Shown piece after piece: positions 11,733 through 32,362 of a DNA stretch of 37,209 nt. The translations under genes and the position numbers were made by a program. Positions within the stretch are counted from its first letter, which is position 1, and each line of letters begins with the position of its first letter. The stretch spans positions 1 to 37,209 of the forward strand of contig JBNJHQ010000004.1 in NCBI GenBank assembly GCA_051748705.1. Direction: 5' to 3'. Below the pieces are notes generated by a model. The model was not told where the DNA came from, ran no database searches, and saw only the letters and a program-made list of their open reading frames with translations. The DNA is from Bacteroidota bacterium. Its GTDB lineage: Bacteria; Bacteroidota; Bacteroidia; Bacteroidales; VadinHA17.

Positions 11733-13049
11733 TCATGATTCATCTGATCTCCTGTTCTTCTCCAAAAGGTATTTGAATGGATAAACCAGGCGGTCTATCA
11801 GGCGCATATCTTCAGTAATAATCTCAGCTCTTCCTGACATACTCTGGCTAAAATCAAGTTGCTTCCCATAGAAAGTTGAAAGGCCATCAGGCAGCTCCAC
11901 ATCAAGCACATATAAATTATCCTGTGGCACAAGCGATCTTGATCTTACTATACCCCGCACCATTCCGTACTCAAGGTAAGGATAACTTTCAAGCTGAATG
12001 TTAACATCCTGTCCTACCCTTACCTTGCCGGATCCTGTCATTGGTATCTTTATGCGTGCAATAATTTCATTGTCCCCGCCCGGGACTACTGTCATCACGG
12101 TTTCTCCTTCCCGGACGGACTGGTTCTCTGACCAGAAAGAAGTAAAAGTGACTTTGCCCCTGGTTGGTGAGACAAGCAGGTAATTCTGGATCCACCAGTC
12201 GAATCTGGCCTTAAGCTTCAGTAGCTGGTCTTCCATTGCAGATTTGAATTTCTGTCTTTCCTCATCGCGAAAGGCGAGCAGATCCTGCAGTTCCTGTTTT
12301 TTTGAAGCCAGGTCTATTTGTCTTGATGCGGCTTCCAGACGTACCTGCACAAGTTCAATCCGGGTTGAGTAATAATTTTGCTTTGAATTTTCGAGTTCAG
12401 CATCCGGAAGTATGTCCTGTTGATTAAGAAGAGAGTCTCTCAGGTATTTTTTCTTTTCCACTTCCAAATTCGAATAGCTGATCTGTTCCTTGTGCTTTAG
12501 CTGCCGGATATAATCCTCAATACTTTTCACTTCGTCCCGGACAGCTTCGATCTTTTTCCCGTAATAATCAATTTGAACATGATTGAAATAGTCAAAAAAT
12601 GTTTTCCTGAATGCTGAATACTGGTCCTGTATTTCCCCCAGCACAGGGTTACCAGGCAGGTTGAACTCATGTTCAATCATTGATGAAGGCAGTTCATCTG
12701 ACTTAACGGTATCGAGCATTGCACTGAGCCATTTAATGCTTTCATAGGAAGCAGTAGTTTCCATAATACCCAGTATTGACCCGGAAGAAACAATATCTCC
12801 GTCATCAACAAAGAGCTCTTCAATGCTGCCGGATACTCTGGCCACGATATTTGCCGGAGGATTTTCAGTTGTAATAACAGCTTCGGCCCTTATTATGTAG
12901 GGGTATTTAATGAAGTACGACAGTAATAAAAGCAAGACAATAACTATTGTTACTATTACTGTTCCCCTGCGTACCAGTGAGGCCGGAGGTGTATTCATTA
13001 TATCCTCAACGGTCTGTGAATATCTTATTTCCTGAGTTTGCTTTTTCAT
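11733..13049 (-). CDS. HlyD-family membrane fusion (type I secretion adaptor) protein
   Basis: N-terminal TM, lipoyl-like half-motifs (VSGSIEELFVDDGDIV; SPTRGKV), long coiled coil, KVRVGQDVNIQLESYPYLEYG; starts 5 nt after the exporter stop. Confidence 0.93.
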   Translation of the reverse strand: MKKQTQEIRYSQTVEDIMNTPPASLVRRGTVIVTIVIVLLLLLSYFIKYPYIIRAEAVITTENPPANIVARVSGSIEELFVDDGDIVSSGSILGIMETTASYESIKWLSAMLDTVKSDELPSSMIEHEFNLPGNPVLGEIQDQYSAFRKTFFDYFNHVQIDYYGKKIEAVRDEVKSIEDYIRQLKHKEQISYSNLEVEKKKYLRDSLLNQQDILPDAELENSKQNYYSTRIELVQVRLEAASRQIDLASKKQELQDLLAFRDEERQKFKSAMEDQLLKLKARFDWWIQNYLLVSPTRGKVTFTSFWSENQSVREGETVMTVVPGGDNEIIARIKIPMTGSGKVRVGQDVNIQLESYPYLEYGMVRGIVRSRSLVPQDNLYVLDVELPDGLSTFYGKQLDFSQSMSGRAEIITEDMRLIDRLVYPFKYLLEKNRRSDES

Positions 13050-13054
13050 AATGA

Positions 13055-15241
13055 TCAGTTACCAAGCTCGAGCTGTTCTCTTATCAGGTTGAAATACATA
13101 CCCTTCTTTTCAATAAGGTCCTCGTGTGTTCCACTCTCAATCATACGTCCCCTGTCAATTACGACAATATTATCTGCCTGACGCACTGTACTCAGCCTGT
13201 GCGCAATAATTACCACGGTTCTGCCAGGGTAAAAATCATTGAGATTTGAAACTATTTGTTTTTCATTGGATGCGTCGAGAGAATTTGTGGCCTCATCGAA
13301 GAACAGGTATTCAGGGTTTTTATAGACCGCCCTGGCTATTAATATTCTCTGCTTCTGTCCCTGCGAAAGGCCCTGCCCGTTATGACCTATCCTTGTATTT
13401 ATTCCCAGGGGCAAAGTATCGATAAAGCTACTGATATTTGCTATTGTAGTGGCTCTAATCAGTCTATCCTTATCAATTGTTTCCACCCCGGGGGCAATAT
13501 TGTTGGCTATGGTATCAGGAAAAATATATCCATCCTGCATAACAACTCCCACCTTGCTCCTCCAGACTTTGAGGCTGAGGTTTCGCAGGTTGGTGTCACC
13601 TATCATCACATCTCCCTCCACCGGTACGTAAAAACCAAGCATCAGTTTCAAAAGGGTTGTTTTTCCGCTTCCGCTGGTTCCAACTATGGCAGTGATCTTT
13701 TTCCCGGGAATAACAATATCGATATCCTTCAGGACGAATGGTGACCGGGGGCCTTCATACTGAAAAGAAAGGCCATTAATAAAAATACTTCTGTTTGCCG
13801 GGAGGTCTTTTACTTTCATATCGGTAACTGACTCCTCGGTCTCACTGGCCTGTACCTCCGACAACCTGTCAAGGCTCAGTCTTGCGTCCTGGGCTGTCCT
13901 GAAAAACACAACCATCTGGTTTACAGGGATATTCAGTTGCCCTATTATAAACTGAACGGCGAGCATCATACCAAGTGTCATGCTGCCTGACAAGACAGCC
14001 AGTGCAGCTATGATTGTGATCAGCACATTGGATACCTCATTTATCAGTTTCCCGCCTGCAAGCTGGTACTGGGACAGGCTCATTGCTTTAACCCTTGTTT
14101 TGAAGAGGGAAGCCTGGAGGTTTTCCCAGTCCCATCTTTTACTGGTTTCACTCTGGGTAAGTTTGATTTCCTGCATGCCCGTGATTATTTCAATCAGCTT
14201 GGCATTATTATCGGATAACTGTTTGAACCTACGGTGATCAAGTTTGGCCCTGGGCTTCATAAAAAAGGTCACCCACCCAATATACAGAAGCGTTCCTGCT
14301 ATGAAAACGAGCAAAATATTAAGATTGTATATTGCCAGCACTATGCCGAATACCAGGAGGTTGACAAATGAAAACAAAACACTCAGGGACGTATTGCTCA
14401 GGAAAGATTCTATGCGCTGGTTATCTTCAATCCGCTGGAGTATATCACCACTTAACTTTTTATCAAAATAAGAAATGGGCAGGGCCATCATTTTATGCAA
14501 AAATCCGGAGACGACTGCCACATTCACCCTTGTGCTTATATGCAGTAATAACCACCCCCTTACAAATTCAACTGTCATTCTTCCGATAACAAGAGCCAGT
14601 TGTGCAAAGAGCACAAGGTAAATGAACCCCAGGTCCCTCGTGTTTATCCCAATATCTATAACAGCCTGGGTGAGAAAGGGAAATATTAGCTGTATAATGC
14701 TGCCTATAAGTAAGCCAAGGAATATCTGGAAGAAATACTTCCTGTATAGCTTAATATACTTGAAAAGAAAAGCGAAACCGGACTTCCCCCCTTCATTCTC
14801 TTCCTGTTCATAAAATGACGGTGTGGGCTGGAGAATCATTACAAGACCAACTTTTTCACCGTCAATCGTGGTCATTGCCCAGTTCTTTTCAAACTCATCC
14901 CTTGTATATTTTACAAGGCCCCGGGCAGGGTCAGCAACATAGACTATCCCTTTTTTTATCTTATATACCACGATAAAATGCTTTTGTCTCCAGTGGACAA
15001 TACATGGCAGGGGGGTATCTTCAGCAAGCCTTGAAAAGGGAATCCGCACACCCAGGGTCCTCAAACCGAGCGATTCGGCTGCTTCCGAGATACCGAGAAA
15101 GGAGACTCCTTCACGGGTAATATAGGAGCGTTCCCTTAAATCGGGGAGACTGAATTTCTTACCGTGAAAACGTGCAATCATCTGAAGGCAGGCGGGGCCA
15201 CAGTCCATTGCATCTGCTTGCCTTTCGAAGGGGAATGACAT
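13055..15241 (-). CDS. Peptidase C39-containing ABC transporter (PCAT; double-glycine leader processing and export)
   Basis: C39 motif QADAMDCGPACL (Cys14), HFIVV, VADP; ABC TM domain; Walker A GTSGSGKTT, signature LSQGQKQR, Walker B LFFDE, IAHRLSTV. Confidence 0.96.
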   Translation of the reverse strand: MSFPFERQADAMDCGPACLQMIARFHGKKFSLPDLRERSYITREGVSFLGISEAAESLGLRTLGVRIPFSRLAEDTPLPCIVHWRQKHFIVVYKIKKGIVYVADPARGLVKYTRDEFEKNWAMTTIDGEKVGLVMILQPTPSFYEQEENEGGKSGFAFLFKYIKLYRKYFFQIFLGLLIGSIIQLIFPFLTQAVIDIGINTRDLGFIYLVLFAQLALVIGRMTVEFVRGWLLLHISTRVNVAVVSGFLHKMMALPISYFDKKLSGDILQRIEDNQRIESFLSNTSLSVLFSFVNLLVFGIVLAIYNLNILLVFIAGTLLYIGWVTFFMKPRAKLDHRRFKQLSDNNAKLIEIITGMQEIKLTQSETSKRWDWENLQASLFKTRVKAMSLSQYQLAGGKLINEVSNVLITIIAALAVLSGSMTLGMMLAVQFIIGQLNIPVNQMVVFFRTAQDARLSLDRLSEVQASETEESVTDMKVKDLPANRSIFINGLSFQYEGPRSPFVLKDIDIVIPGKKITAIVGTSGSGKTTLLKLMLGFYVPVEGDVMIGDTNLRNLSLKVWRSKVGVVMQDGYIFPDTIANNIAPGVETIDKDRLIRATTIANISSFIDTLPLGINTRIGHNGQGLSQGQKQRILIARAVYKNPEYLFFDEATNSLDASNEKQIVSNLNDFYPGRTVVIIAHRLSTVRQADNIVVIDRGRMIESGTHEDLIEKKGMYFNLIREQLELGN

Positions 15242-15378: not shown

Positions 15379-15945
15379 GTGTTAAAAAAACACTCAGATA
15401 AAAAATTAATAGAGGGAATACGAAAGGGGGATCAGAATTCTATTAACTACCTCTATGACACATTTTTCGATACCATTAACTCATATATAGTAAAAAATAC
15501 AGGTACGGAGGATGATGCCTATGATATATTCCAGGATGCGATGATGGTAATCTTCAAAAAGATACAGCAGAACAACCTGGATGAATCAACGGATGTAAAA
15601 GGATATCTTTTTGGTGTTGCCCGCAATTTATGGCATGAACATCTGAGGAAGGAAAAGAAGAAGGTGGATCTGGACCCTGATGTGAGCGATGAATTTGATC
15701 CTTCAAGCCTGCTTGATACTCCCCTGGAGCAAATAGTGCAGAGATCATTCCTTGTTCTCAAGCCGGAATGCAGGGAAGTGCTCAATATGCTAATCAAAGG
15801 AGCTGACTATAAAGAGATCGCAAAAACCATGAATTATAAATCGGAAGATTATGCCCGAAGGAAAAAGTATCTCTGCAAAGAAGCGCTCATTAAAATAATC
15901 AAAGCTGATCCTGAATTCAGTGATTATTCTTTTACTGACCTGTAA
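15379..15945 (+). CDS. ECF-type sigma-70 factor (GTG start)
   Basis: Region 2 (EDDAYDIFQDAMM..YLFGVARNLW) and region 4 (LKPECREVL..YKEIAKTMNY..RRKKYLCKEAL); 188 aa. Confidence 0.92.
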   Translation: MLKKHSDKKLIEGIRKGDQNSINYLYDTFFDTINSYIVKNTGTEDDAYDIFQDAMMVIFKKIQQNNLDESTDVKGYLFGVARNLWHEHLRKEKKKVDLDPDVSDEFDPSSLLDTPLEQIVQRSFLVLKPECREVLNMLIKGADYKEIAKTMNYKSEDYARRKKYLCKEALIKIIKADPEFSDYSFTDL

Positions 15946-18923
15946 TAATACCGTATTAAAAGGTAGGCGATTGCCAGAACCATTATTATTAGAATGTATC
16001 TCTTCACAGGTAAATAAACAGCATCATCATCGCCTATAATAACCATGGTACTCCAGAAATAGGGATGTGATCGCATCTGGTCAGCACTGGAGAGGTAGTC
16101 CATTCTCGCTTTCCTGAGGGATCTGCTCTTCGTATGCCCCCGTTTCAGGTATAAATAGAAATTTTTTACCATTTCACTGCCCGACATGTCATCCACTTCC
16201 CAGAGTGACATAATCACACTCGGGCTTCCTGAGTAGAAGAAGCCTCTTGCCAGGCTCATTACACCCTCACCTGATTGCAGGAAGCCGCTGCCTGTGTTAC
16301 AGGAACTAAGGAACACCATCTTTGATCTGAATGGTATATTATAAACCTCGAAAGTATTAAGCATGCCATCTTCAACAGTATCGGCCTTCATATCGAATAT
16401 CATTTTTGAATACATTGGCTCACGATCATTTAAAAGGGTGTGCATCGAAAGGTGTATGATATCACCTTTGAGAACATTATTCTTGAATGCACTTTCAGTG
16501 GCCCGGTCATCAATGAACAGGTCTCCACCAAGTAATTTATTGATATAGATTGCTTCCTCACGAGCACCGGGTATATTGCCAAGGCTGTCACGAAACGACT
16601 GCCTGGTCATCATGAGCTCATTGACATCCATGTTACTACTGTATTCCGGGGCAAAGACAAGTGTGCGGTTTTTAATGCTCCTTCCGTATGATATTTTTTC
16701 TGACAGCAGGGTGGCTGAGTATTCGTATACTATATTGTATTCGTTCAGCAGGTAGGACAGCTCCCTGTAATTTACCTCGTCATAGTCGGGCATTTCAGAG
16801 ATCAGTGATTCAAAAGGGATGTATGAAAGAATATCATCAGCTGAAATAATCAACCTGTCAGAAACCAGGTAATCCTCCACCGGCAACACCAGTCTCTTGT
16901 ACAATTCTGAAGCAAGGCTGATAAATTGCCGGTACTGGGAAACTGACCCTTTTACAATGGAAGGCTCTATAAGTATATTCCTGAAATCAAGGAGCATTCC
17001 TCTTAAATCATCCTTACTGCTCACGGTCTTAACCTCAAATACCCGGTCATTTATAAGAAAAATATACAGCAGGCTGTCAGACAGGTAATACTCAATAAAG
17101 TTGCCATCTTTTCCTACCCTTTCCCTGATTTCTTCTATACTGCTTATTTCAGAATTGTGTTTAAGGTTAAAGTAGCGCGGATAATCTTTTTCAAAAATTC
17201 GTATAAGTGAGTCATGACGTGCCCCGGTTTTCAAGCTGAGCTGGCGGTAATGATTTATTAAATCATAATCAGGTTCCTGTTTTGCAGACTCATTATAAAT
17301 CACTTCGTTATAATCCCTGAGATCTGCCATCAGTTCTCTTTCGAGACCGGCAAGATCAGGGGGCAGGTGGTAATCCAGGGCCCTGTTGTTCCTTGTTGCC
17401 AGCAGCAGGCCGGCTGCCCTTGATTTCTCCGAAACTGCGAAGGCGCTCTCAGCATAAACAGGATCGCCCGTTAGCTCGAATAAACTATGCAAAATTGAAA
17501 GTGACAGATCATAAGCTTCAAAAAAATTACCGGAAACCCTGCTGCTGCTTTCATATTCCTTTACCCTTATCCTGGTATCTTCAATTAAGGCTACAGTCTT
17601 TTCTGCAGCAGACAAAGCCTCCTTCAGTATCTTCATATCACTTTCTGCCCCGGGCATACCTATGAGTATCCTGCTTTTATAGAGGTGGGCCGCTGTCCTT
17701 ATCCTTGATGACATTATCAAAGAATCCCCGATAAGCAAATTGATATATTCAAGGGCTTCACTATTTCTCCCGGTTTCATACATCAGCCTTGCATGATAGA
17801 GGTATGCCTCCCCTTTCACCCTACGGTCGTGTTCATTATTTCCTGCATATATAAGTGCCTGTTTTAACACTTTATCTAACTGTGTGTAATCGTCTGTTTC
17901 CTGGAGAAGGAAATAGGCATAATTCAGAAGCTGGATAATATGGTCGCGGCTGTTTGTCCCATAAGCCTTCTCAGCTTCATCAACCGATAAGAGCAAATAT
18001 TTCCTGGCCCCCTCCAGGTCATCAATTTCCGACAGCAGCCGGGAATAATTATCATAAAGTGAATAGAGGATCCTGCCCTTATAATGTGTGGATTCTACCA
18101 GGTCAATTGCTTTCTTAAAATAGTATTCTGATTCTTCGATGTTCTGCAGTTCAAAATTAGATGCTGCCAGTGATACATATGATCTCAATATATCCGCTAT
18201 ATCAATAGTTTCAGTCCTGGACTGGAGTGAATAAGCAAGTTCAAAATTGCGCTTTGCCCGGTTGAAATCAAAGATATTCATATAGGACACACCGGTATTG
18301 AAATATAAATTAAGCAGGTTTATATTATCTGTGAGATCCGGGTATGCCTCCGCAAGGTTTATCCCCCTTAGCGATACAGAAAGGGCCCTTTCATACATGC
18401 TCATATCAATATATACTGCAGAAAGGTTGACAAGTGTCTTTAGCAATAAGGGAGAAGTCGGCCCAAAGAGTTCTTCCCTTGTGGCAACAGCCAGTTCGAG
18501 GTTCTCCCTTGCCTGCTCCGGCTGCCCGCTATGATAATATGACAGTCCCAGATTTGTTCTTGCTTTGGTGTAAATATCATCAATACTGTCTTTTGCCAGC
18601 CTGAAGCGTATAGATTTTTGTAACAATCCTTTTGATTCATCGTATGAATCTGTAAGATATTTATATGTCCCGGCATAATAGTAACAATCGGATAAGAGGA
18701 TAGTGTCACGTGTATCATGGGTGGCAAGGTAATCCAGTATCCATTCATAGTATTCGCCGGCTGCGGGATTACTCTCCTGCATGGCAAGTTTAAAAGCGTC
18801 AAGCTTGTTGATCAGGGTGGAATCACCGGTAAGCGGTAAAGTATGATCGCCGGCATATAAAGGGGGAAAATAAGAAAAGAGAAAAACTGATAAAATTAAT
18901 ATGCACCTGCAGATTATGCCCAT
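15924..18923 (-). CDS. TPR-CHAT (caspase-like) protease with signal peptide and C-terminal TM anchor
   Basis: Signal-like N-terminus ending PLYA/G; many TPR helices; CHAT motifs LSYIPFESL, IHLSMHT (His), FLSSCNTG (Cys), GEGVMSLARGF, SLWEVDD, HPYFWS; hydrophobic C-terminal helix followed by basic residues. Confidence 0.92.
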   Translation of the reverse strand: MGIICRCILILSVFLFSYFPPLYAGDHTLPLTGDSTLINKLDAFKLAMQESNPAAGEYYEWILDYLATHDTRDTILLSDCYYYAGTYKYLTDSYDESKGLLQKSIRFRLAKDSIDDIYTKARTNLGLSYYHSGQPEQARENLELAVATREELFGPTSPLLLKTLVNLSAVYIDMSMYERALSVSLRGINLAEAYPDLTDNINLLNLYFNTGVSYMNIFDFNRAKRNFELAYSLQSRTETIDIADILRSYVSLAASNFELQNIEESEYYFKKAIDLVESTHYKGRILYSLYDNYSRLLSEIDDLEGARKYLLLSVDEAEKAYGTNSRDHIIQLLNYAYFLLQETDDYTQLDKVLKQALIYAGNNEHDRRVKGEAYLYHARLMYETGRNSEALEYINLLIGDSLIMSSRIRTAAHLYKSRILIGMPGAESDMKILKEALSAAEKTVALIEDTRIRVKEYESSSRVSGNFFEAYDLSLSILHSLFELTGDPVYAESAFAVSEKSRAAGLLLATRNNRALDYHLPPDLAGLERELMADLRDYNEVIYNESAKQEPDYDLINHYRQLSLKTGARHDSLIRIFEKDYPRYFNLKHNSEISSIEEIRERVGKDGNFIEYYLSDSLLYIFLINDRVFEVKTVSSKDDLRGMLLDFRNILIEPSIVKGSVSQYRQFISLASELYKRLVLPVEDYLVSDRLIISADDILSYIPFESLISEMPDYDEVNYRELSYLLNEYNIVYEYSATLLSEKISYGRSIKNRTLVFAPEYSSNMDVNELMMTRQSFRDSLGNIPGAREEAIYINKLLGGDLFIDDRATESAFKNNVLKGDIIHLSMHTLLNDREPMYSKMIFDMKADTVEDGMLNTFEVYNIPFRSKMVFLSSCNTGSGFLQSGEGVMSLARGFFYSGSPSVIMSLWEVDDMSGSEMVKNFYLYLKRGHTKSRSLRKARMDYLSSADQMRSHPYFWSTMVIIGDDDAVYLPVKRYILIIMVLAIAYLLIRYYYRSVKE

Positions 18924-19140
18924 CTGTAATAATATTATGCTTCAAGCATCCAAATATCAGTATAAGAACTTAAAAAGCAAAATAAAAATCACTATGCATA
19001 TCCTTGTATACCTGTATTTTATAAAAAATGTAAAAAAAAAGTCACTTTTTTTATGTCACAAAAAGGTTAAAAATGACATGTATATATGTAAAGCAAATTT
19101 TAACCCGATTAATTAAAAGTGTAACCAAAAAATTTAAACG

Positions 19141-19278
19141 ATGAAAACTTTAAACCAGGAAAACTTTGAAAATTTCAGTGACTTTTTACTTTCAGACGAA
19201 GAAATGATCCTCGTACGTGGCGGAGACGGTGAAGAAAAAGGTATGACAGTACCCCCGGTCACAGACCCTGAAATATAG
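19141..19278 (+). CDS. Double-glycine-leader precursor peptide, 45 aa (not in ORF track)
   Basis: MKTLNQENFENFSDFLLSDEEMILVRGG / DGEEKGMTVPPVTDPEI*. The leader matches LSxxE(L/M)xx(I/V)xGG, the start context is A-rich (aaaaaatttaaacgATG), and a C39 exporter lies 3.9 kb away. Confidence 0.85.
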   Translation: MKTLNQENFENFSDFLLSDEEMILVRGGDGEEKGMTVPPVTDPEI

Positions 19279-19280
19279 AA

Positions 19281-19532
19281 GCAGGCAATCCAGACGAAAT
19301 ACAGCGATCTGTAAAATATTTTAACCGTATTGAGCGGTGCCGTATGCTTATTGCGAAAGCTGCGGTGTGTAAAGGCACGCGAAATATGTCATATTAAGTT
19401 AGATGACATATAAGAAATGCTACGAAGCACGGTTGGCGTATACCCACCGGGTGTGCACACGGAGCAACTGCGGGGCAGGCAGAAATGGTATTTTCCATAA
19501 TCAGGCCTGCAGCATGACGGCCAGTAATGGCC
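19281..19532 (+). ncRNA. Candidate structured RNA or structured intercistronic region
   Basis: A run of hairpins found by eye, including GGCCA-GTAA-TGGCC and GC-GAAA-GC (GNRA loops), ATATGTCAT-N10-ATGACATAT and GCAGGC/GCCTGC. I recognise no known family. Confidence 0.35.
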
Positions 19533-19578
19533 AGGTAGTGAAATAGTAATATATTATCCAGATGAAATATAATAAATC

Positions 19579-20316
19579 ATGAAAAAAATTGAGTTCAACC
19601 GCTTTCTCGAAAGGTACCTCGAGGGAAAAATGCAAAGCGCCGAGAAGAAATGGTTTGAGGCTGAGCTGGAAGGTAATCCGGGACTTAAGAAGGAGCTCGA
19701 ATTGCGCAAAAAGGTCATTAAGCATCTTGAAAACCAGGATGCAATTGCATTCAGGCAAAGCCTTATGAGTGCCGAGGCAAGGCACAGAAAAGACAGGGCA
19801 AAACGAAAGGCAGCTTCCAAACACGTCATTCAGTATGCAGCTGTATTCGCTGGTCTCATTATTATTGCAAGCCTGGGTCTTTTTACCCTGAGAAACAATA
19901 TTGATGCAGATATTGCATCAAAGTATTCACCGGAGTATGTCCCTCTTTCAGTCTCACGTACATCGTCTGCAATGATTGATGAGGCATATTCAATGGCCAC
20001 AGAGTATTATAATTCAGGAAACTATGCTGAAGCAATAAAATGGTTCAACAGGATAGTGGATGCTGATATGCAGGTTGAATTTCTGAAGGGATCATCACAT
20101 ATGCAGATCAGCCAGTATAATGAAGCCATTGGCTCCTTCAGCAAAGTAGTTGAGGACAATGATAACCTCTTTATTGAAGATGCCCGGTTTTACCTTGCCG
20201 TATGCTATCTGCAGACAGGAGAAAAAGAAAGCTCGAGGCACTTGCTTGAGGCTATCACCAGGTCTGAAAACAGGCATAAGAAGGATGCAAGGAAACTTTT
20301 GAAAAAGATTGACTAA
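19579..20316 (+). CDS. Putative anti-sigma factor: N-terminal anti-sigma-like domain, single TM, C-terminal TPR domain
   Basis: ERYLEGKMQSAEKKWFEAELEGNPGLKKELE resembles a Zn-less anti-sigma N-terminal domain; basic stretch then TM (VIQYAAVFAGLIIIASLGLFTL); TPR motifs YYNSGNYAEAIKWF and ARFYLAVCYLQTGE. Confidence 0.7.
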   Translation: MKKIEFNRFLERYLEGKMQSAEKKWFEAELEGNPGLKKELELRKKVIKHLENQDAIAFRQSLMSAEARHRKDRAKRKAASKHVIQYAAVFAGLIIIASLGLFTLRNNIDADIASKYSPEYVPLSVSRTSSAMIDEAYSMATEYYNSGNYAEAIKWFNRIVDADMQVEFLKGSSHMQISQYNEAIGSFSKVVEDNDNLFIEDARFYLAVCYLQTGEKESSRHLLEAITRSENRHKKDARKLLKKID

Positions 20317-20345: not shown

Positions 20346-21164
20346 ATGACTTTTGGGAGAAATACGGAAAAGGTGTCACATACAGTTGACAAAGGGAAAC
20401 CAGGTGAAAAATCTCATATTCAGCAAAACGATATGCTTACTACTCCATCCATACTGACAGGATTGTCTCATGAAGTGCGAACATACATGAACTCGATTGT
20501 TGCATTCACTTTCCTGAGCAATAATGATAACTGCACGGATGAACAGAGGAATGAGTACAACAGGCATATCATGAAATCATGCGACCAGTTAATCACATTA
20601 TTTGACAATTTCCTTGATTCAGCACTGATCGATTCCGACATCCCAAGATCCACATATACAAAGTGCAAGCTTAATACCTTACTGGAAGATCTTCTAGATG
20701 ATATAAATAGTTCCATCAGCAGGTTTGATAAAAAGAAGGTTACACTACTGCTGGATGAGAGATCCGGAGGTGACTCATTATATATTGATAAGGAGAAAAT
20801 TAATCGGGTTTTAAAAAATCTCTTTTTCAATGCTTTTGAGAACACTGACGCGGGTTATATCAGGATGGGTTACAGGAAACAAAAAAACAGGGTTGATTTT
20901 TACATCATTGATTCGGGTAATGGTTACACAAAGAATCAACAACTGCTTGCCTGTGACAATTTTGAGGAGGAACTGGTGCAAAGCCAGAATACTTTTAACA
21001 CTGTTTCATTCATACTATCTCGCAAGCTTATCGAGAGTATGAATGGTGAATTATGGATACGACCCAATGGCGTTCACGGAACTGCTATGTATTTCTCGGT
21101 TCCCGAACCCAGGGTAATGAAAGAAGGAACATCTGAACATATTTCATCCAGAATCGCAATCTGA
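20346..21164 (+). CDS. Sensor-less, degenerate histidine kinase-like protein (HisKA + HATPase-like); start uncertain
   Basis: H-box LSHEVRTYMN, N-box LKNLFFNAFENT, G1 IIDSGNG, G3-like GVHGTAMYFSVP; G2 box GxGLGL is absent; no TM or sensor domain. Confidence 0.75.
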   Translation: MTFGRNTEKVSHTVDKGKPGEKSHIQQNDMLTTPSILTGLSHEVRTYMNSIVAFTFLSNNDNCTDEQRNEYNRHIMKSCDQLITLFDNFLDSALIDSDIPRSTYTKCKLNTLLEDLLDDINSSISRFDKKKVTLLLDERSGGDSLYIDKEKINRVLKNLFFNAFENTDAGYIRMGYRKQKNRVDFYIIDSGNGYTKNQQLLACDNFEEELVQSQNTFNTVSFILSRKLIESMNGELWIRPNGVHGTAMYFSVPEPRVMKEGTSEHISSRIAI

Positions 21165-28905: not shown

Positions 28906-29997
28906 TTATAATGATTTAACTGCATCTAGTTCAATCTCAAAAAGCAAATCATCCCTGCATACTGTGCCACCAACAGTAAGAACGCATGAAGTGTCTATTC
29001 CCCTTGACATGCAATAATCTCTGAAGTGTTTTATATGCTGTGTATCCGGGAAGTATGCAATAGCGCGTACAATATTATCCCAATGGTATTGCTCATTAAC
29101 CAGAATAGCCTCCACCACCACCATTGAATGCTCTATCTGATCGACGACGCTATTTTCATAGAGTGTCTTCCCTTTCCCGTCAATTGAAGCCGTACCACTA
29201 ATGATCAGTCTTTTTGATGTTTTGAAGCTGATTTCCACCGCCCTGCTGAACGAGCTTTTGTATTTTATTGCATCACCCTGCATCGGGGAATCAATAATTC
29301 TAACCTTCTCCTTTCCATCTTTTGCCTTAAGTGCAAAGGCACTGATCAAAAGACATTTACCTTCAACATTGTCAAGGCCGATCCCGGTGCTGGCAGGAAT
29401 AAGGCCGTCGAGTATCTTCTCTTCAATAAAAAAGTCATTCCTGGCCCTGTTTAAATCACTATACCAACTCAGTATATCATGAAGATAAAGCCATGTGCGA
29501 GCAAGATTACTATAGTTGACAGCATATTCTTTAAGTATTTTGCCAAGTATTTTAAATGAAGAGTAAGCCTGACTGTAGCAATCATTCAGATGATCAGACT
29601 GTATGTTGCTTATGAAATAAAGTAAAGAATCATAATGACTGACAGTTTTAATACTGGCACTATCCTTATTTCTTATTGATTTAACATCCCTGCTATCAGT
29701 ACATATTAATTGAATATGGCAGCCTGATGAAACATTATGCCTCAGGAATATTATACCACCTGGTTCATCTGATAATTGATCAATTATCGGGGCTTCAAAG
29801 CCAAAGGCAAAACCAATTAATACCTGCAGTACATTATTCGTCAGATAAGCAGATAAATTTTTCATTGCCAGACAAATATCCTTATCCGGATGCACTGAGT
29901 AATTAATATAAAAAAATGAATGATCAGGGTATTCCTCCCGTACGGAAATCAAATCATTTTTGTCAGATACGGAAGCAGTATTCTTGCTAATTTTCAT
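28906..29997 (-). CDS. Rid/YjgF-fold (chorismatase-like, tandem domain) protein
   Basis: ARTWLYLHDIL, PASTGIG, SSFSRA, ISGTASID, VCRDDLLFEIE. Confidence 0.75.
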   Translation of the reverse strand: MKISKNTASVSDKNDLISVREEYPDHSFFYINYSVHPDKDICLAMKNLSAYLTNNVLQVLIGFAFGFEAPIIDQLSDEPGGIIFLRHNVSSGCHIQLICTDSRDVKSIRNKDSASIKTVSHYDSLLYFISNIQSDHLNDCYSQAYSSFKILGKILKEYAVNYSNLARTWLYLHDILSWYSDLNRARNDFFIEEKILDGLIPASTGIGLDNVEGKCLLISAFALKAKDGKEKVRIIDSPMQGDAIKYKSSFSRAVEISFKTSKRLIISGTASIDGKGKTLYENSVVDQIEHSMVVVEAILVNEQYHWDNIVRAIAYFPDTQHIKHFRDYCMSRGIDTSCVLTVGGTVCRDDLLFEIELDAVKSL

Positions 29998-32362
29998 TTT
30001 TTATGAGCTGATCCAAACTGTTTTGAATTGACTGCCTTTCGTTTGGTGAAAGATTTACATTATCCATTGCTTTGTTAAGTATAGTGATTGCTTTTGCTGA
30101 ATCACCCAGGCCGAGGTAAATGTCTGTTAAGAGCATGTATGAATCAAAAAAAGTGCTGTCGGCCTCTATTAGCTCATGAAGTATGTTTTTTGCAGCCTCT
30201 GTTCTATCTGATTGAAGAAGATAATAAGCATGAGTATAGCCATATTTCGGTTCATCAGGTTCCCATTCCATGGCTTTTTTACTCAGGTCAAGTGCCTTTT
30301 CCAGGTCATTTTCGGATTCAAGCACAGCAAGGTTATATGCAGCCACTGAATTTTTTTCACTCACATCCAACAGGCGCTTAAAGTAATGCCTGGCCATTTC
30401 ATTATTTCCTGTTTCACCGTACAAAAGTGCCAGGTTGAGCAATGCTGCTTCATGATCAGGGGCATAAGAAAGGGCCCTGGTAAACATCTCTTCCGCTGAA
30501 CTGTAATCACCCGAAAGGGAATAAATGAAACCGGCATTCACCATCGGCATAATTGCCCCTGGAAATAGTTTTATTGATGTTCTGTATGCATCCAGTGCCC
30601 GGTCATAGTCATCCAGACTACTGTAATAATTACCCAGGTTATAATGAGCCGACCAATCGTCGGAACGGACAACGAGTGAACTCTCATATTCATCCATTAC
30701 TTCACTTATCCTGTCTTCATCAGGGAGTGAAGCAATTTCACCGGAAAAAGGGCTAAGGGCATAAGCCGCATTGAGCCTCACCACCCTGTACCTGTCAGCC
30801 GTAAGTTCTGCCAGCCGTTCAAGAGCATTTACCGATCCATTGCCATAAAGGCTGTGGGCAGCGGCACCTCTGACCAGTGGAGAGTCGTGGTATGTAAGCT
30901 TTAGCATATGGGGCCACTTTGCAGGATCATCACAGTCTTCAAGCAGCCTGATAAAGGAGGTAGCATATACCTTATCGAAACTCTCTTTCTGCAGGCCATT
31001 CAGAATTTTATCCAGATCCGTCCAGTCGCCTTCCCTTGCTTTCCTTATCAGCAAACCATTCCTGATAGCTTCATCCTTGTAATTATTCATGCCTGCCCCG
31101 GTCAAAACACTGTCAGCCCAGCCTGCAGTCTGGTCCTCATGACATAAATTACAGGCATTAGGAGATCCGAAAACCACACTTGCCCCCGGCATTGGAGGTC
31201 TGAAAGAATGGTCACTCCGGTCCATCATCGCAAAGCTCGTTTTCGGCATATGACACAGGATACATTCACTCACCGTATTATCCGGCATAAAGGAGGTGTG
31301 AATTGCAGGACTATTAACTTTGTCTTCATGGCAGGGCATGCAGGCATTGTTGGCATCTGCTCCGGAGAAGCGATATCTGCCGCTTGATGTATGGCATGTC
31401 ACACAATGCAGATCACTGTTGCCGGCGCATTTATTCATTTCCCATGTCGTCATCGTATAGTTTTCACCAAGGTCGCGACCGTCAGCATAAAAATCAGGGT
31501 TTTCAAGCGTTATAAGATCAAAGTAGTCATAGAATTCTGACCCGGGAATAAAATCCTGTGCAAGAACAACGGCCTTGGCATGGCATGAGGCGCATGAAGC
31601 ATTATGCTGTTCAGGGGTGAACTCGCCTGTGACAACTATTTTGAGATCGTCCGGGATATTCCCCTCACCTGCCTCAACACAGGCAACTATGTGATCATGG
31701 CTGGGCCCATGGCATGTTTCACAGTTAATGCCGGCCTCTCTCCATGTGGTATTGTAGGTATTGTCCGAAAGGTTATAATTTGTTTCCAGCTGGCTCACGT
31801 GGCAGCTGTAACAGGTAGTATTAAATGTATACAGGTGGCTCATCCAGTCAAGGGGAGCATCGTCAATCGTTTCAAAATGTCTCACTCCGCTCTCGGGATT
31901 ATTATACCAGCTGTCATTATTACAATCATAGGCAAGCGGGAGAACCTGTAAGCGTCCCCTGTCAAGGGGTGTGAGGAAATAATAGATATACTTACCACCC
32001 ATAGCATGAATGGCCGGGTACTCATAACTATTTCCCGATCTCCTGGTTTCAGTGAAAATAAGTGAATCTCCCCTTGAAGAAACACTGAACAAATCCTCTC
32101 CAACCCTTATTTCCCCCTTAAATGATTTAATATTTTCACCGATGAACCGGCCAGTGACAGGCTGCATAGCCAGCCCGTGGTATGAATCATGCCAGAGCTG
32201 GTAGAACTTTTCATGGCAGGGTCTGCAACTTTCACTGCCGGAATATTTTGCTATGCCGGTGTTCAGGGCGTCGGAACGCTTCGTACGTATAATGGTAATC
32301 GCCACTATAAGCGCTATGAACAACAGGAGGATAAAGAGGGGAAAGAATAATCTCGATTTCAT
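29987..32362 (-). CDS. Octaheme c-type cytochrome fused to HEAT-like and TPR repeats
   Basis: N-terminal TM/signal; eight CxxCH motifs (CRPCH, CYSCH, CETCH, CASCH, CVTCH, CMPCH, CILCH, CNLCH); HEAT-like PLVRGAAAHSL; C-terminal TPRs (AHYNLGNYY, ALLNLALLY). Confidence 0.88.
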   Translation of the reverse strand: MKSRLFFPLFILLLFIALIVAITIIRTKRSDALNTGIAKYSGSESCRPCHEKFYQLWHDSYHGLAMQPVTGRFIGENIKSFKGEIRVGEDLFSVSSRGDSLIFTETRRSGNSYEYPAIHAMGGKYIYYFLTPLDRGRLQVLPLAYDCNNDSWYNNPESGVRHFETIDDAPLDWMSHLYTFNTTCYSCHVSQLETNYNLSDNTYNTTWREAGINCETCHGPSHDHIVACVEAGEGNIPDDLKIVVTGEFTPEQHNASCASCHAKAVVLAQDFIPGSEFYDYFDLITLENPDFYADGRDLGENYTMTTWEMNKCAGNSDLHCVTCHTSSGRYRFSGADANNACMPCHEDKVNSPAIHTSFMPDNTVSECILCHMPKTSFAMMDRSDHSFRPPMPGASVVFGSPNACNLCHEDQTAGWADSVLTGAGMNNYKDEAIRNGLLIRKAREGDWTDLDKILNGLQKESFDKVYATSFIRLLEDCDDPAKWPHMLKLTYHDSPLVRGAAAHSLYGNGSVNALERLAELTADRYRVVRLNAAYALSPFSGEIASLPDEDRISEVMDEYESSLVVRSDDWSAHYNLGNYYSSLDDYDRALDAYRTSIKLFPGAIMPMVNAGFIYSLSGDYSSAEEMFTRALSYAPDHEAALLNLALLYGETGNNEMARHYFKRLLDVSEKNSVAAYNLAVLESENDLEKALDLSKKAMEWEPDEPKYGYTHAYYLLQSDRTEAAKNILHELIEADSTFFDSYMLLTDIYLGLGDSAKAITILNKAMDNVNLSPNERQSIQNSLDQLIKNEN

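What the first reader, a model, noticed from the sequence alone, without database searches (positions are those of the whole stretch)
19141..19278. Unannotated 45-aa double-glycine precursor with an acidic, proline-rich 17-aa core
The ORF falls below the track cutoff. The leader ends LSDEEMILVRGG with hydrophobic residues at -12, -7 and -4 and Glu at -8, the canonical C39 recognition pattern (GG codons at 19219-19224). The predicted core DGEEKGMTVPPVTDPEI has 5 acidic and 1 basic residue, 3 Pro and no Cys. This is unlike cationic or amphipathic bacteriocins and fits a signal or protease ligand better (inference). It is the only plausible substrate I find here for the PCAT.
Basis: partly seen in the sequence, partly recalled or inferred. 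Interest (0 to 1): 0.85.

Follow-up and report, generated by a model that had tools for sequence, protein, structure and literature searches.

The report
Secreted peptide ligand for a periplasmic protease
A real, conserved 45-residue gene in uncultured Bacteroidales encodes a short acidic, proline-rich peptide that is probably cut and exported by the neighbouring transporter and then sensed by a neighbouring caspase-like protease tied to a sigma/anti-sigma switch, which would be a peptide signalling route of a kind not yet described in this phylum.

Summary
The ORF at 19141-19278 (+) is exactly as described. It is a real gene. It is full length in 13 of 14 genomes of the genus, only its frame is open in 13 of 13 orthologs, and pN/pS is 0.157/0.581. 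RNA-library contigs cover it.

It sits in a conserved module: HlyD adaptor, C39 transporter (PCAT), ECF sigma, exported TPR-CHAT protease, the peptide, an anti-sigma-like TPR membrane protein and a soluble histidine kinase. Across the order, similar GG-leader peptides with short acidic, proline-rich cores lie beside TPR-CHAT genes in 12 of 14 loci.

A profile search found 95 relatives among 1.84 billion proteins; the cores have a median length of 17 residues. No Pfam or NCBIfam model covers them.

Co-folding places core residues 31-45 in the concave TPR groove of the TPR-CHAT protein: ipSAE 0.73, best of 3 controls 0.00, partner pLDDT 42-44.

Best reading: a PCAT-exported ligand of a periplasmic TPR-CHAT protease that controls the ECF sigma. 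Processing, binding in cells and the protease's substrate are all inferred. Predicted contact residues are not more conserved than their surroundings.

The parts
19141..19278 (+). Precursor gene: leader residues 1-28 (19141-19224), predicted mature 17-mer DGEEKGMTVPPVTDPEI (19225-19275), stop (19276-19278)
   Evidence: Translation. Orthologs. Purifying selection. Frame test. RNA-library contigs.
19054..19088 (+). Conserved promoter-like block: TGTCAC, about 21 nt, then TATATATG
   Evidence: Near-invariant in 15 aligned upstream regions, including two other genera. A related G[GT]T[CT]AC(C)...TA(T/A)TA(G) arrangement appears upstream of peptide genes in other families; this was judged by eye. 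The full strict pattern occurs once in the window.
19099..19140 (+). Likely 5' untranslated region, holding the conserved blocks AACCCGATTAAT and AGTGTAACC
   Evidence: RNA-library contigs of two runs of one study both begin at 19099. This is a weak hint only. The blocks are conserved.
15924..18923 (-). TPR-CHAT protein (999 aa), transcribed divergently from the peptide gene. It has an N-terminal signal-like segment, about 9-10 TPR pairs, a CHAT caspase-like domain and a C-terminal membrane anchor.
   Evidence: Pfam CHAT E 8.1e-49 plus TPR families. His828 and Cys875 are kept in 26 of 26 homologs. The terminal hydrophobic segments appear in nearly all of the 26 homologs printed, judged by eye and not tallied; L026 clearly lacks the C-terminal one. 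The best fold matches are craspase TPR-CHAT, separase and DdvA.
19579..20316 (+). Anti-sigma-like membrane protein (245 aa): conserved N-terminal helices, one membrane helix (about residues 88-105), a linker with near-invariant R127, and a 3-repeat periplasmic TPR
   Evidence: Weak NCBIfam anti-sigma hits, E 0.0033 and 0.027. Alignment. Homologs directly follow the ECF sigma gene in L076 and L074. The TPR part folds like peptide-binding TPR modules such as SycD, PcrH and Hsp90-peptide binders.
15379..15945 (+). ECF-type sigma factor (188 aa)
   Evidence: Pfam Sigma70_r2. TIGR02937 sigma70-ECF scores 44.6 bits against a cut-off of 42.9. Present in 15 of 17 syntenic loci.
13055..15241 (-). Peptidase-containing ABC transporter (PCAT, 728 aa)
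   Evidence: Pfam Peptidase_C39, ABC_membrane and ABC_tran. Q8, C14, H83/H88 and D104 are present. Full-length match to PCAT1 4ry2 at E 1.1e-106 and to ComA.
11733..13049 (-). HlyD-type periplasmic adaptor (438 aa)
   Evidence: Pfam HlyD_3. TIGR01843 at E 2.1e-29, below its cut-off.
20346..21164 (+). Soluble histidine kinase (272 aa) with HisKA and HATPase_c only. Pfam places no other domain in it, and no response regulator was found in the window.
   Evidence: Kept in 15 of 17 syntenic loci and in 4 of 14 order-wide loci.

Best explanation
The ORF is the precursor of a small, unmodified, secreted peptide.

1. The neighbouring PCAT recognises the double-glycine leader and cuts after Gly28. Together with the HlyD-type adaptor it exports the 17-mer DGEEKGMTVPPVTDPEI.
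2. In the periplasm, directly or after re-entry, the peptide's conserved C-terminal half (VPPVTDPEI) lies extended in the concave groove of the N-terminal TPR superhelix of the TPR-CHAT protein. That protein is exported and tail-anchored in the inner membrane.
3. Ligand occupancy changes the activity or substrate access of the CHAT (caspase-like His-Cys) domain.
4. The most likely substrate is the periplasmic linker or TPR part of the neighbouring anti-sigma-like protein. Its cleavage would start release of the ECF sigma factor. The logic matches DegS/RseA/sigma-E, DdvA/DdvS and craspase/Csx30/CASP-sigma.

The whole would act as an autocrine or cell-to-cell peptide sensing circuit.

Shown: the gene is real and under selection. 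The module is conserved. The catalytic residues of C39 and CHAT are intact. The co-fold passes its controls.

Inferred: cleavage, export, binding in vivo, whether the ligand activates or inhibits, the identity of the protease substrate, and the role of the kinase.
For: Gene reality:
- pN/pS is 0.157/0.581 overall, with pN 0.119 in the leader and 0.102 in the last 9 residues against 0.352 in the linker.
- Only the +1 frame is open in 13 of 13 orthologs.
- RNA-library contigs at 99% identity or more cover the ORF in 3 of 4 runs laid, all from one study.

Linkage within the family, 17 loci:
- A TPR-CHAT homolog lies beside the peptide in 17 of 17.
- The anti-sigma-like TPR protein is present in 16, the ECF sigma in 15, the kinase in 15 and the PCAT in 13. 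Most misses fall at contig ends.
- The genes stay together after rearrangement in L036 and L038.

Linkage across the order:
- The peptide profile hits 12 of 301 genomes. All hits have acidic or proline-rich short cores.
- 12 of 14 fetched loci have a TPR-CHAT within about 3 kb, 8 have the ECF sigma, 7 the anti-sigma-like protein and 7 the PCAT.

Machinery:
- The C39 catalytic residues are present and the CHAT dyad is kept in 26 of 26.
- A signal-like N-terminus and a C-terminal anchor followed by basic residues place TPR-CHAT in the periplasm.

Binding:
- ipSAE is 0.75, 0.73 and 0.72 in three runs; the best of 3 controls is 0.00. In the tool's calibration 58 of 80 solved complexes and 2 of 110 mismatched pairs reached the mark.
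- The runs share at least 42% of their contacts, and the partner pLDDT is 42-44.
- The confident interface uses only peptide residues 31-45. On the other side it uses TPR-CHAT residues 45-414, spaced about 40 residues apart as on a concave TPR face.

Precedents:
- The fold is nearest to craspase TPR-CHAT, separase and DdvA.
- DdvA, from passages read in PMC11506125.
- Csx29/Csx30/CASP-sigma, from passages read in PMC10028731.
Against: - Predicted contact residues are not more conserved than their surroundings: 0.589 against 0.604 identity, and 0.762 against 0.727 and 0.636 against 0.637 majority fraction, with permutation fractions 0.25 and 0.49. The conserved Asn ladder (N124, N166, N209, N292) is at least partly a generic TPR feature; this last point is recalled.
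- The peptide's own pLDDT in the co-fold is low (42-44). The score is a model's confidence only.
- The anti-sigma assignment is weak. NCBIfam E-values are 0.0033 and 0.027. No anti-sigma domain hit came from the PDB profile search or the fold search. No zinc motif is seen.
- The peptide was not tested against the anti-sigma protein's own TPR domain, which resembles C-terminal-peptide binders.
- TPR-CHAT homologs occur in 168 of 301 genomes of the order, but a GG peptide was found within 1.5 kb in only 9 of the 30 best loci. Most relatives may therefore use another signal.
- No outer-membrane channel gene and no response regulator were seen in the window.
- The RNA evidence comes from contigs of one study and cannot exclude DNA carry-over.
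Confidence: 0.5

Rival explanations
1. The peptide is sensed by the small periplasmic TPR domain of the anti-sigma-like protein encoded just downstream, alone or together with TPR-CHAT. TPR-CHAT would then be only the protease that acts afterwards, or would have an unrelated job.
For: The peptide gene and the anti-sigma-like gene share a strand. RNA-library contigs bridge the spacer between them, X4 19298-19642 and X9 19347-19660. The 3-repeat TPR folds like modules that clamp short, often C-terminal, peptides such as SycD, PcrH, IpgC and Hsp90-MEEVD binders. The protein accompanies the peptide in 16 of 17 family loci.
Against: Order-wide it is present in only 7 of 14 peptide loci, against 12 of 14 for TPR-CHAT. 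Loci such as L072 and L073 have the peptide next to a CHAT gene, and tblastn found no such protein in those 20-kb loci. The co-fold with TPR-CHAT already passes its controls.
Confidence: 0.15
2. The peptide is a securin-like inhibitor or a decoy substrate. It occupies the substrate-docking groove of TPR-CHAT and keeps the protease quiet in the producing cell, rather than carrying information between cells.
For: Separase, a top fold match, is held inactive by securin; this property is recalled, and only mentions securin as the inhibitor. The peptide and the protease genes are divergent neighbours in every family locus.
Against: The confident contacts lie only in residues 45-414, with none in the CHAT domain at 670-965. 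Dedicated export through a PCAT is an odd route for a one-to-one inhibitor of a protein that is itself exported.
Confidence: 0.12
3. The peptide is an antimicrobial (class II bacteriocin-like) or a RiPP natural product, and the regulators nearby merely control its production.
For: It has a GG leader next to a PCAT and HlyD. The leader weakly resembles TIGR04149, a RiPP precursor family (E 0.023). 18 of 94 relatives match that model at E 0.01 or better.
Against: The core has net charge -4, no Cys and only 17 residues. Among relatives 76 of 93 cores are net negative and only 9 of 93 have Cys. No maturase is present: the only radical SAM gene nearby is QueE-like and lies about 4 kb away, and it is absent from the module in other families. 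No immunity-like gene is seen. The C-terminal motif is near-invariant across the genus. The gene is single-copy and lies among housekeeping genes.
Confidence: 0.08
4. The ORF is conserved but the peptide has no extracellular role, for example a regulatory upstream ORF for the downstream genes, or a peptide that is never processed.
For: It lies upstream of the anti-sigma-like and kinase genes on the same strand. Translation has not been shown.
Against: Selection acts on the amino-acid sequence, and most strongly on the C-terminal motif. The leader fits C39 recognition. A PCAT with no other candidate substrate is kept in the module in 13 of 17 loci.
Confidence: 0.05

Closest known systems
[quoted passage not shown]
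   Same: A periplasmic TPR-CHAT with a His-Cys dyad is genetically tied to an ECF sigma. The proposed role is a signal-activated site-1 protease acting on a linker next to the membrane. DdvA structures 8rw5 and 8rot are among the top fold matches, E about 1e-12.
   Different: Here TPR-CHAT is a separate protein with an N-terminal signal-like segment and a C-terminal anchor, not fused to the anti-sigma domain. A separate 245-residue anti-sigma-like TPR protein, a kinase, a PCAT and a dedicated peptide gene are added. DdvA's signal is unknown and its regulon is a defence island. That paper reports DdvA-like proteins only in Myxococcota and one Comamonas species.
Craspase (Cas7-11/Csx29 TPR-CHAT) cleaving Csx30 to free the ECF-like CASP-sigma (passages read in PMC10028731)
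   Same: A TPR-CHAT protease is switched on by a ligand-bound state and cuts a sigma inhibitor. 7zoq_A is the best fold match, E 2.6e-13.
   Different: Craspase is cytoplasmic and is triggered by target RNA through Cas7-11. Here the protein is predicted to be periplasmic, no CRISPR genes are nearby, PADLOC finds no defence family, and the proposed trigger is a secreted peptide.
DegS/RseA/sigma-E envelope stress pathway of E. coli (recalled; outlined in PMC10028731)
   Same: In that pathway a periplasmic protease is activated when a peptide C-terminus binds its sensor domain. It then makes the first cut in a membrane anti-sigma factor.
   Different: DegS is a serine protease with a PDZ sensor, and the signal is the C-terminus of misfolded porins. 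Here the sensor is a TPR, the protease is caspase-like, and the ligand is a dedicated gene product with its own exporter.
RRNPP peptide pheromone receptors of Firmicutes (Rap, NprR, PlcR, PrgX, Rgg; recalled)
   Same: Short unmodified secreted peptides are bound in the concave face of a TPR-type receptor.
   Different: RRNPP receptors are cytoplasmic transcription factors or phosphatases. Their peptides leave by Sec or PptAB and return through Opp. Here the receptor is extracytoplasmic with a protease output, and export is by a PCAT.
Double-glycine peptide pheromones and bacteriocins exported by PCATs (ComC/ComA, PCAT1; TIGR04149 leaders of Bacteroidota)
   Same: The leader pattern and the C39-ABC transporter match: full-length hits to PCAT1 and ComA structures and a weak TIGR04149 leader hit.
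   Different: ComC-type pheromones are sensed by membrane histidine kinases. TIGR04149 peptides are partnered with radical SAM maturases. This peptide scores below the TIGR04149 cut-off (14.6 against 25 bits), has no maturase, and is linked to a TPR-CHAT protease.

Membership tests
Double-glycine leader peptide (PCAT substrate) | Leader ends in GG (or GA/GS), with hydrophobic residues at -4, -7 and -12 and an acidic residue at -8 | tested here: met
   LSDEEMILVRGG has V at -4, M at -7, E at -8 and L at -12. G27 is invariant and G28 nearly so (16 of 17; L027 has Ser), E21 is invariant and M22 nearly invariant in 17 orthologs. G27 and G28 are invariant in 94 relatives.
Double-glycine leader peptide (PCAT substrate) | A cognate transporter with an active C39 peptidase domain nearby | tested here: met
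   Peptidase_C39 at E 1.7e-36. Q8, C14, His and D104 are present. A PCAT is present in 13 of 17 family loci.
Double-glycine leader peptide (PCAT substrate) | Cleavage after GG and export of the core | not testable with these tools
   This needs biochemistry or mass spectrometry.
TIGR04149 family rSAM-modified RiPP (Bacteroidota GG-leader precursors) | Score above the curated cut-off of the family model | tested here: not met
   14.6 bits against a cut-off of 25, E 0.023, covering the leader only at positions 1-29. 13.1 bits in the genome search.
TIGR04149 family rSAM-modified RiPP (Bacteroidota GG-leader precursors) | A partner radical SAM maturase, usually with a Cys-bearing core (the Cys point is recalled) | tested here: not met
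   The core has no Cys. The only radical SAM gene in the window is QueE-like (TIGR04322, E 4.9e-33) and lies about 4 kb away. It does not travel with the module outside the family.
DdvA-type TPR-CHAT anti-sigma factor with ECF sigma | An extracytoplasmic TPR-CHAT with a His-Cys dyad | tested here: met
   CHAT at E 8.1e-49. H828 and C875 are kept in 26 of 26. Topology is inferred from the terminal hydrophobic segments. The fold matches 8rw5 and 8rot.
DdvA-type TPR-CHAT anti-sigma factor with ECF sigma | TPR-CHAT fused through one membrane helix to an N-terminal zinc-binding anti-sigma domain | tested here: not met
   TPR-CHAT begins with a signal-like segment and is anchored at its C-terminus. 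The anti-sigma-like domain sits on a separate 245-residue protein with no H/C zinc motif.
DdvA-type TPR-CHAT anti-sigma factor with ECF sigma | A co-encoded ECF sigma factor | tested here: met
   TIGR02937 scores above its cut-off. Present in 15 of 17 family loci and 8 of 14 order-wide loci.
Class I anti-sigma factor (for the 245-residue protein) | An N-terminal anti-sigma domain that binds the ECF sigma | tested here: inconclusive
   Only weak NCBIfam hits, E 0.0033 and 0.027. No anti-sigma hit by PDB profile or fold search. Support comes from architecture and from homologs placed directly after the sigma gene in L076 and L074.
RRNPP peptide-TPR quorum sensing | A cytoplasmic TPR receptor with an HTH or phosphatase output, and peptide re-import | tested here: not met
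   The receptor candidate has a signal-like N-terminus and a protease domain, with no HTH.
RRNPP peptide-TPR quorum sensing | The peptide is bound in the concave TPR groove | tested here: inconclusive
   The co-fold gives ipSAE 0.73 against 0.00 for controls, with the core in the groove. Contact residues show no extra conservation.
Class II bacteriocin | A cationic or amphipathic core, usually with an immunity gene (recalled) | tested here: not met
   Net charge is -4. 76 of 93 related cores are net negative. None of the proteins scanned near the locus matched an immunity-protein family; no dedicated search was made.

The most novel reading that the evidence does not exclude
Bacteroidales carry a peptide autoinducer pathway of a new design. 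A PCAT-exported, unmodified, acidic proline-rich peptide is read in the periplasm by the TPR arm of a tail-anchored caspase-like (CHAT) protease. The protease then cuts a membrane anti-sigma factor and frees an ECF sigma. The peptide promoter, with its conserved GTCAC...TATAT element, would be the sigma's target, closing a positive loop. This would be the first peptide quorum-sensing system in Bacteroidota (a recalled claim). It would also be the first natural ligand known for a bacterial TPR-CHAT protease outside CRISPR.
Probability: 0.3. Interest if true: 0.9.

Novelty: new variant of a known kind. Interest (0 to 1): 0.78.

Why it matters
TPR-CHAT proteases are known to control sigma factors in two settings, DdvA and craspase. 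For DdvA the signal is still unknown. Here the likely ligand is written in the genome next to the protease, so the question of what switches on a periplasmic CHAT protease becomes directly testable with a 17-residue synthetic peptide.

TPR-CHAT homologs occur in 168 of 301 sampled Bacteroidales genomes. A worked example could therefore explain a common but unstudied signalling module in an order that dominates guts and sediments.

It would also add peptide signalling to a phylum where, to my knowledge, none has been characterised. The peptide family itself has no Pfam or NCBIfam model: 95 representatives were found, and gene callers often miss ORFs this short.

Tried and rejected
- The search for related loci with the 17-row alignment failed for lack of a conserved stretch. 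A 10-row genus alignment worked.
- Rfam found nothing in 18800-19700. The simple scan found no terminator and only weak sigma-70-like sites, which is expected for Bacteroidota.
- PADLOC gave no hit for TPR-CHAT, the sigma, the anti-sigma-like protein, the kinase or the peptide. A known defence system is therefore not indicated.
- Conservation of predicted contact residues gave no enrichment.
- Profile and fold searches of the anti-sigma-like protein returned TPR matches only.
- The strict peptide-promoter pattern occurs once in the window. The looser TGTCAC...GACAT pattern has a second match inside the TPR-CHAT gene. The sigma/PCAT spacer holds an ordinary TAnnTTTG-type element instead.
- My first pattern scan for GG leaders had a spacing error and missed even the positive control. 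It was corrected.
- Beyond the order, the peptide profile gave 1 weak hit in 400 genomes of the phylum, E 0.0039 inside a 337-residue frame. I treat it as spurious.
- Five weak hits (E above 0.3, four of them in frames of 239-920 residues, one a 39-residue frame with an internal stop) were likewise set aside.
- Literature: nine full-text searches were run. None returned a paper linking a CHAT domain with a double-glycine peptide or PCAT. Searches returned nothing at all.
- The ECF classification paper PMC7826278 does not mention CHAT in its main text. Its supplementary tables could not be opened and might list such a gene neighbourhood.
- Parts of the stretch without RNA contig cover are not interpreted.
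Full report
**1. The observation**

Translating window:19141-19278:+ gives MKTLNQENFENFSDFLLSDEEMILVRGGDGEEKGMTVPPVTDPEI followed by a stop. Every detail in the finding holds:
- The GG codons are at 19219-19224.
- The leader has L, E, M and V at -12, -8, -7 and -4.
- The 17-residue core has five acidic residues, one Lys, three Pro and no Cys.

The ORF is too short for the usual ORF lists. It appears only at a 20-residue cut-off, together with an antisense 42-residue ORF.

**2. It is a gene**

The peptide alone found one copy in its own 2.73-Mb, 78%-complete assembly.
- In a sample of 40 relatives it found full-length matches in 13 of 14 genomes of the genus.
- It also found credible, more diverged matches in five other genera of the family.
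- Five further rows had E above 0.3, four of them in frames of 239-920 residues, and I discount them.

Among 13 genus orthologs, mean pN is 0.157 and mean pS is 0.581.
- The leader (pN 0.119) and the last nine residues (pN 0.102) are constrained.
- The D/G/E-rich linker is not (pN 0.352).

Only the annotated frame is open in all 13. The antisense ORF survives in 3 of 13. Third codon positions vary at 22 of 28 leader codons and 9 of 9 C-terminal codons, against 10-11 and 3 at positions 1 and 2.

Within the genus the C-terminus is PP[VI]TEPEI. The window's copy is the only one with TDPEI.

Contigs from metatranscriptome libraries of one salt-lake study cover the ORF at 99% identity or more in three of the four runs laid.
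- Two of them begin at 19099, which is 42 nt before the ATG and 11 nt after a conserved TATATATG.
- Others bridge into the downstream gene.
- This hints at transcription but is not proof, because contigs cannot exclude DNA carry-over.

**3. The neighbourhood**

Pfam and NCBIfam give the following gene order:
- a HlyD-type adaptor (11733-13049, -);
- a full PCAT (13055-15241, -);
- an ECF sigma (15379-15945, +);
- a 999-residue TPR-CHAT protein (15924-18923, -);
- the peptide (+);
- a 245-residue protein with a conserved N-terminal helical region, one membrane helix and a periplasmic TPR (19579-20316, +);
- a 272-residue soluble histidine kinase (20346-21164, +).

The PCAT keeps Gln8, Cys14, His and Asp104 of the C39 site. 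It aligns end to end with PCAT1 and ComA structures.

The TPR-CHAT protein keeps His828 and Cys875 in 26 of 26 homologs. In nearly all of the 26 homologs printed it starts with a signal-like hydrophobic segment. In nearly all it also ends with a hydrophobic helix followed by basic residues (judged by eye, not tallied). This places the TPR and CHAT parts in the periplasm, tail-anchored to the inner membrane.

Its predicted structure (pLDDT 83.5) is closest to craspase TPR-CHAT (7zoq, E 2.6e-13), separase and the anti-sigma factor DdvA (8rw5 and 8rot).

The rest of the window holds housekeeping genes such as YidC, CTP synthase, DUF349, a PorE-like OmpA protein, QueE and pyrBI. There is no maturase, no response regulator and no outer-membrane channel. 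PADLOC recognises no defence family in the module.

**4. Conserved linkage**

In 17 loci from the genus and family:
- The peptide sits beside a TPR-CHAT gene in all 17. For L037 the peptide was found, not by tblastn.
- The anti-sigma-like protein is present in 16, the sigma in 15, the kinase in 15 and the PCAT in 13. Most gaps are at contig ends.
- In L036 and L038 the order is rearranged but the genes stay together.

A profile of 17 orthologs hit 12 of 301 sampled genomes of the order. It hit only one weak, probably spurious place in 400 genomes of the rest of the phylum.

The order-wide hits share the leader (..EM..V/I-R/K-GG). Their short cores begin with D/E/G and are rich in Pro, for example DGATTPPPPVKTGTEEDIIL and GPDDDDPTPPINK. 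Of 14 such loci fetched with 10-kb flanks:
- 12 have a TPR-CHAT homolog within about 3 kb;
- 8 have the ECF sigma, 7 the anti-sigma-like protein and 7 the PCAT;
- the two without have the peptide at a contig edge.

In L072 and L073 the peptide lies directly next to a CHAT gene, and tblastn found none of the other module genes in those 20-kb loci. The constant pair is therefore peptide plus TPR-CHAT.

**5. The peptide family**

Against 1.84 billion representative proteins, the profile found 95 at E 0.001 or better and 9 at 1e-10 or better. One 816-residue hit was dropped, and one sequence was not split by my pattern. That left 93 cores:
- median length is 17 residues;
- the composition includes Pro 21.7%, Ile 12.7%, Gly 11.1% and Asp 10.4%;
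- 79 contain PP;
- 76 are net negative, 14 neutral and 3 positive;
- 9 contain Cys.

A typical form is GG, an acidic stretch, P..PP(I/V)x(I/V) and then the C-terminus.

Only 18 of 94 reach E 0.01 against TIGR04149, and no other NCBIfam model fits. The window's peptide scores 14.6 bits against a cut-off of 25 and has no Pfam hit. In the 5.8-billion-protein collection it has 11 close clusters, named 'hypothetical protein' where named at all. A motif scan of species genomes returned 16 loci, all uncultured Bacteroidales MAGs.

**6. Does the peptide touch the protease?**

I co-folded TPR-CHAT residues 26-968 (20-row alignment) with the whole precursor (17-row alignment).
- ipSAE was 0.75, 0.73 and 0.72 in three runs. 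The three controls scored 0.00, 0.00 and 0.00.
- The tool's calibration gives 58 of 80 solved complexes and 2 of 110 mismatched pairs reaching the mark. These counts hold only roughly because I used my own alignments.
- The runs share at least 42% of their contacts. The partner's pLDDT is 42-44.

The confident interface uses only peptide residues 31-45, which is the core and not the leader. On the protease side it uses residues 45-414 in clusters about 40 residues apart, the pattern of a concave TPR face. The conserved VPPVTDPEI lies against repeats 2-5. No CHAT-domain residue is in the interface.

No complex of this family has been solved. Peptides lying in TPR grooves are common in the PDB, however, so the pass may partly reflect that general likeness.

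The check I could add was negative. Contact residues are not more conserved than other residues of the same region. An Asn ladder (N124, N166, N209, N292) is kept across the order, but it is at least partly a generic TPR feature (recalled).

**7. How it most likely works**

The PCAT removes the leader and exports the 17-mer. The peptide docks in the TPR groove of the periplasmic TPR-CHAT. This alters CHAT activity towards a substrate, most plausibly the anti-sigma-like membrane protein, and the ECF sigma is released.

The last step rests on three analogies:
- DdvA is a TPR-CHAT fused to an anti-sigma domain, proposed to cut its own linker (PMC11506125, passages read).
- The Csx29 TPR-CHAT cuts the sigma inhibitor Csx30 (PMC10028731, passages read).
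- DegS/RseA (recalled).

The anti-sigma assignment is weak. It is helped by homologs that directly follow the sigma gene in other families, as in L076 and L074. A near-invariant Arg127 sits in the periplasmic linker. Whether it is a cut site is pure conjecture.

The region upstream of the peptide gene is unusually conserved for non-coding DNA. By eye, it shares a GT(C/T)AC...TAT/TAATAG layout with peptide promoters in other families. The sigma gene itself has an ordinary TAnnTTTG element. That fits a dedicated, possibly ECF-dependent, promoter, but this is inference.

Several things remain unknown:
- whether the ligand activates or inhibits;
- what the kinase does;
- whether the peptide acts between cells or only on its producer.

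**8. What cuts against it**

- TPR-CHAT homologs are far commoner than the peptide: 168 of 301 genomes. A GG-leader ORF lies within 1.5 kb in only 9 of the 30 best loci. Several of the rest have the sigma and the anti-sigma-like genes alongside. Most relatives may therefore respond to something else, or their peptides lie further away or are too diverged.
- The small TPR of the anti-sigma-like protein folds like C-terminal-peptide binders. It is an untested alternative receptor.
- Translation, cleavage and binding are all untested.

**9. Comparison and novelty**

The parts are known kinds: a GG leader with a PCAT, a TPR-CHAT, and an ECF sigma with an anti-sigma factor. The combination is not one I could find described. 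It consists of a dedicated secreted peptide linked to, and predicted to bind, a separate tail-anchored periplasmic TPR-CHAT next to a split anti-sigma protein and a kinase.

Nine full-text searches found no paper joining a CHAT domain with a double-glycine peptide or PCAT. The supplements of the ECF classification paper could not be opened and may list the neighbourhood.

It fails defining tests for TIGR04149 RiPPs, for DdvA-type fused anti-sigma factors, for RRNPP systems and for class II bacteriocins. I rate it a new variant of a known kind, with high interest because the hypothesis is cheap to test.

Noticed in passing
L027:9998-10138 (-), genome G002: One genus ortholog has VRGSG in place of VRGG, followed by PDNEKGMNVPPITEPEI. 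The cleavage motif is either GS or is shifted by one residue.
   Followed up: no
L028 and L031 (genome G005, two contigs): The whole module occurs twice in one MAG that has 8% contamination. In the L031 copy the peptide ends PPATEVEI, and the TPR-CHAT match covers only residues 28-678. This could be a decaying paralog or a second strain binned together.
   Followed up: no
window 20799-20810 (-): An exact second copy of the 12-mer AACCCGATTAAT, which starts the peptide's conserved 5' leader at 19102, lies antisense inside the histidine kinase gene. It could be chance or a second regulatory site.
   Followed up: no
window 19384-19412 (+): An inverted repeat, ATATGTCATATT...ATGACATAT, lies between the peptide gene and the anti-sigma-like gene. 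Its half-sites resemble the ATGTCA...TGACAT pair in the peptide promoter at 19053-19079. It is partly conserved in L022, L032 and L033.
   Followed up: partly
L076:9845-10100 (+), genome G252; also L077, genome G312: Some genomes carry two tandem peptide genes with near-identical leaders and slightly different cores. L076 also has two anti-sigma-like TPR paralogs, one after the sigma gene and one after the peptides.
   Followed up: no
L072, L073 (genome G298) and L078 (genome G041): A sub-type of peptides has polyproline cores ending in GGG(G/N), for example DGDESLLIPPPPPPPPPLPGGGN. They lie next to shorter, more diverged CHAT proteins of about 825-857 residues. Among the ORFs scanned in L072 and L073, Pfam recognised no sigma factor nearby.
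   Followed up: partly
Order-wide, loci L092-L115: TPR-CHAT homologs of about 1100 residues are very common: 168 of 301 genomes have a homolog. In L104, L108 and L110 an anti-sigma-like TPR protein of 248-249 residues is encoded next to them, and in L108 an ECF sigma as well. No GG peptide was found within 1.5 kb of 21 of the 30 best loci. This is a widespread, apparently unstudied module.
   Followed up: partly
window 29987-32362 (-): A 791-residue protein combines multihaem cytochrome c motifs, HEAT repeats and a long TPR array. It is unrelated to the finding.
   Followed up: no
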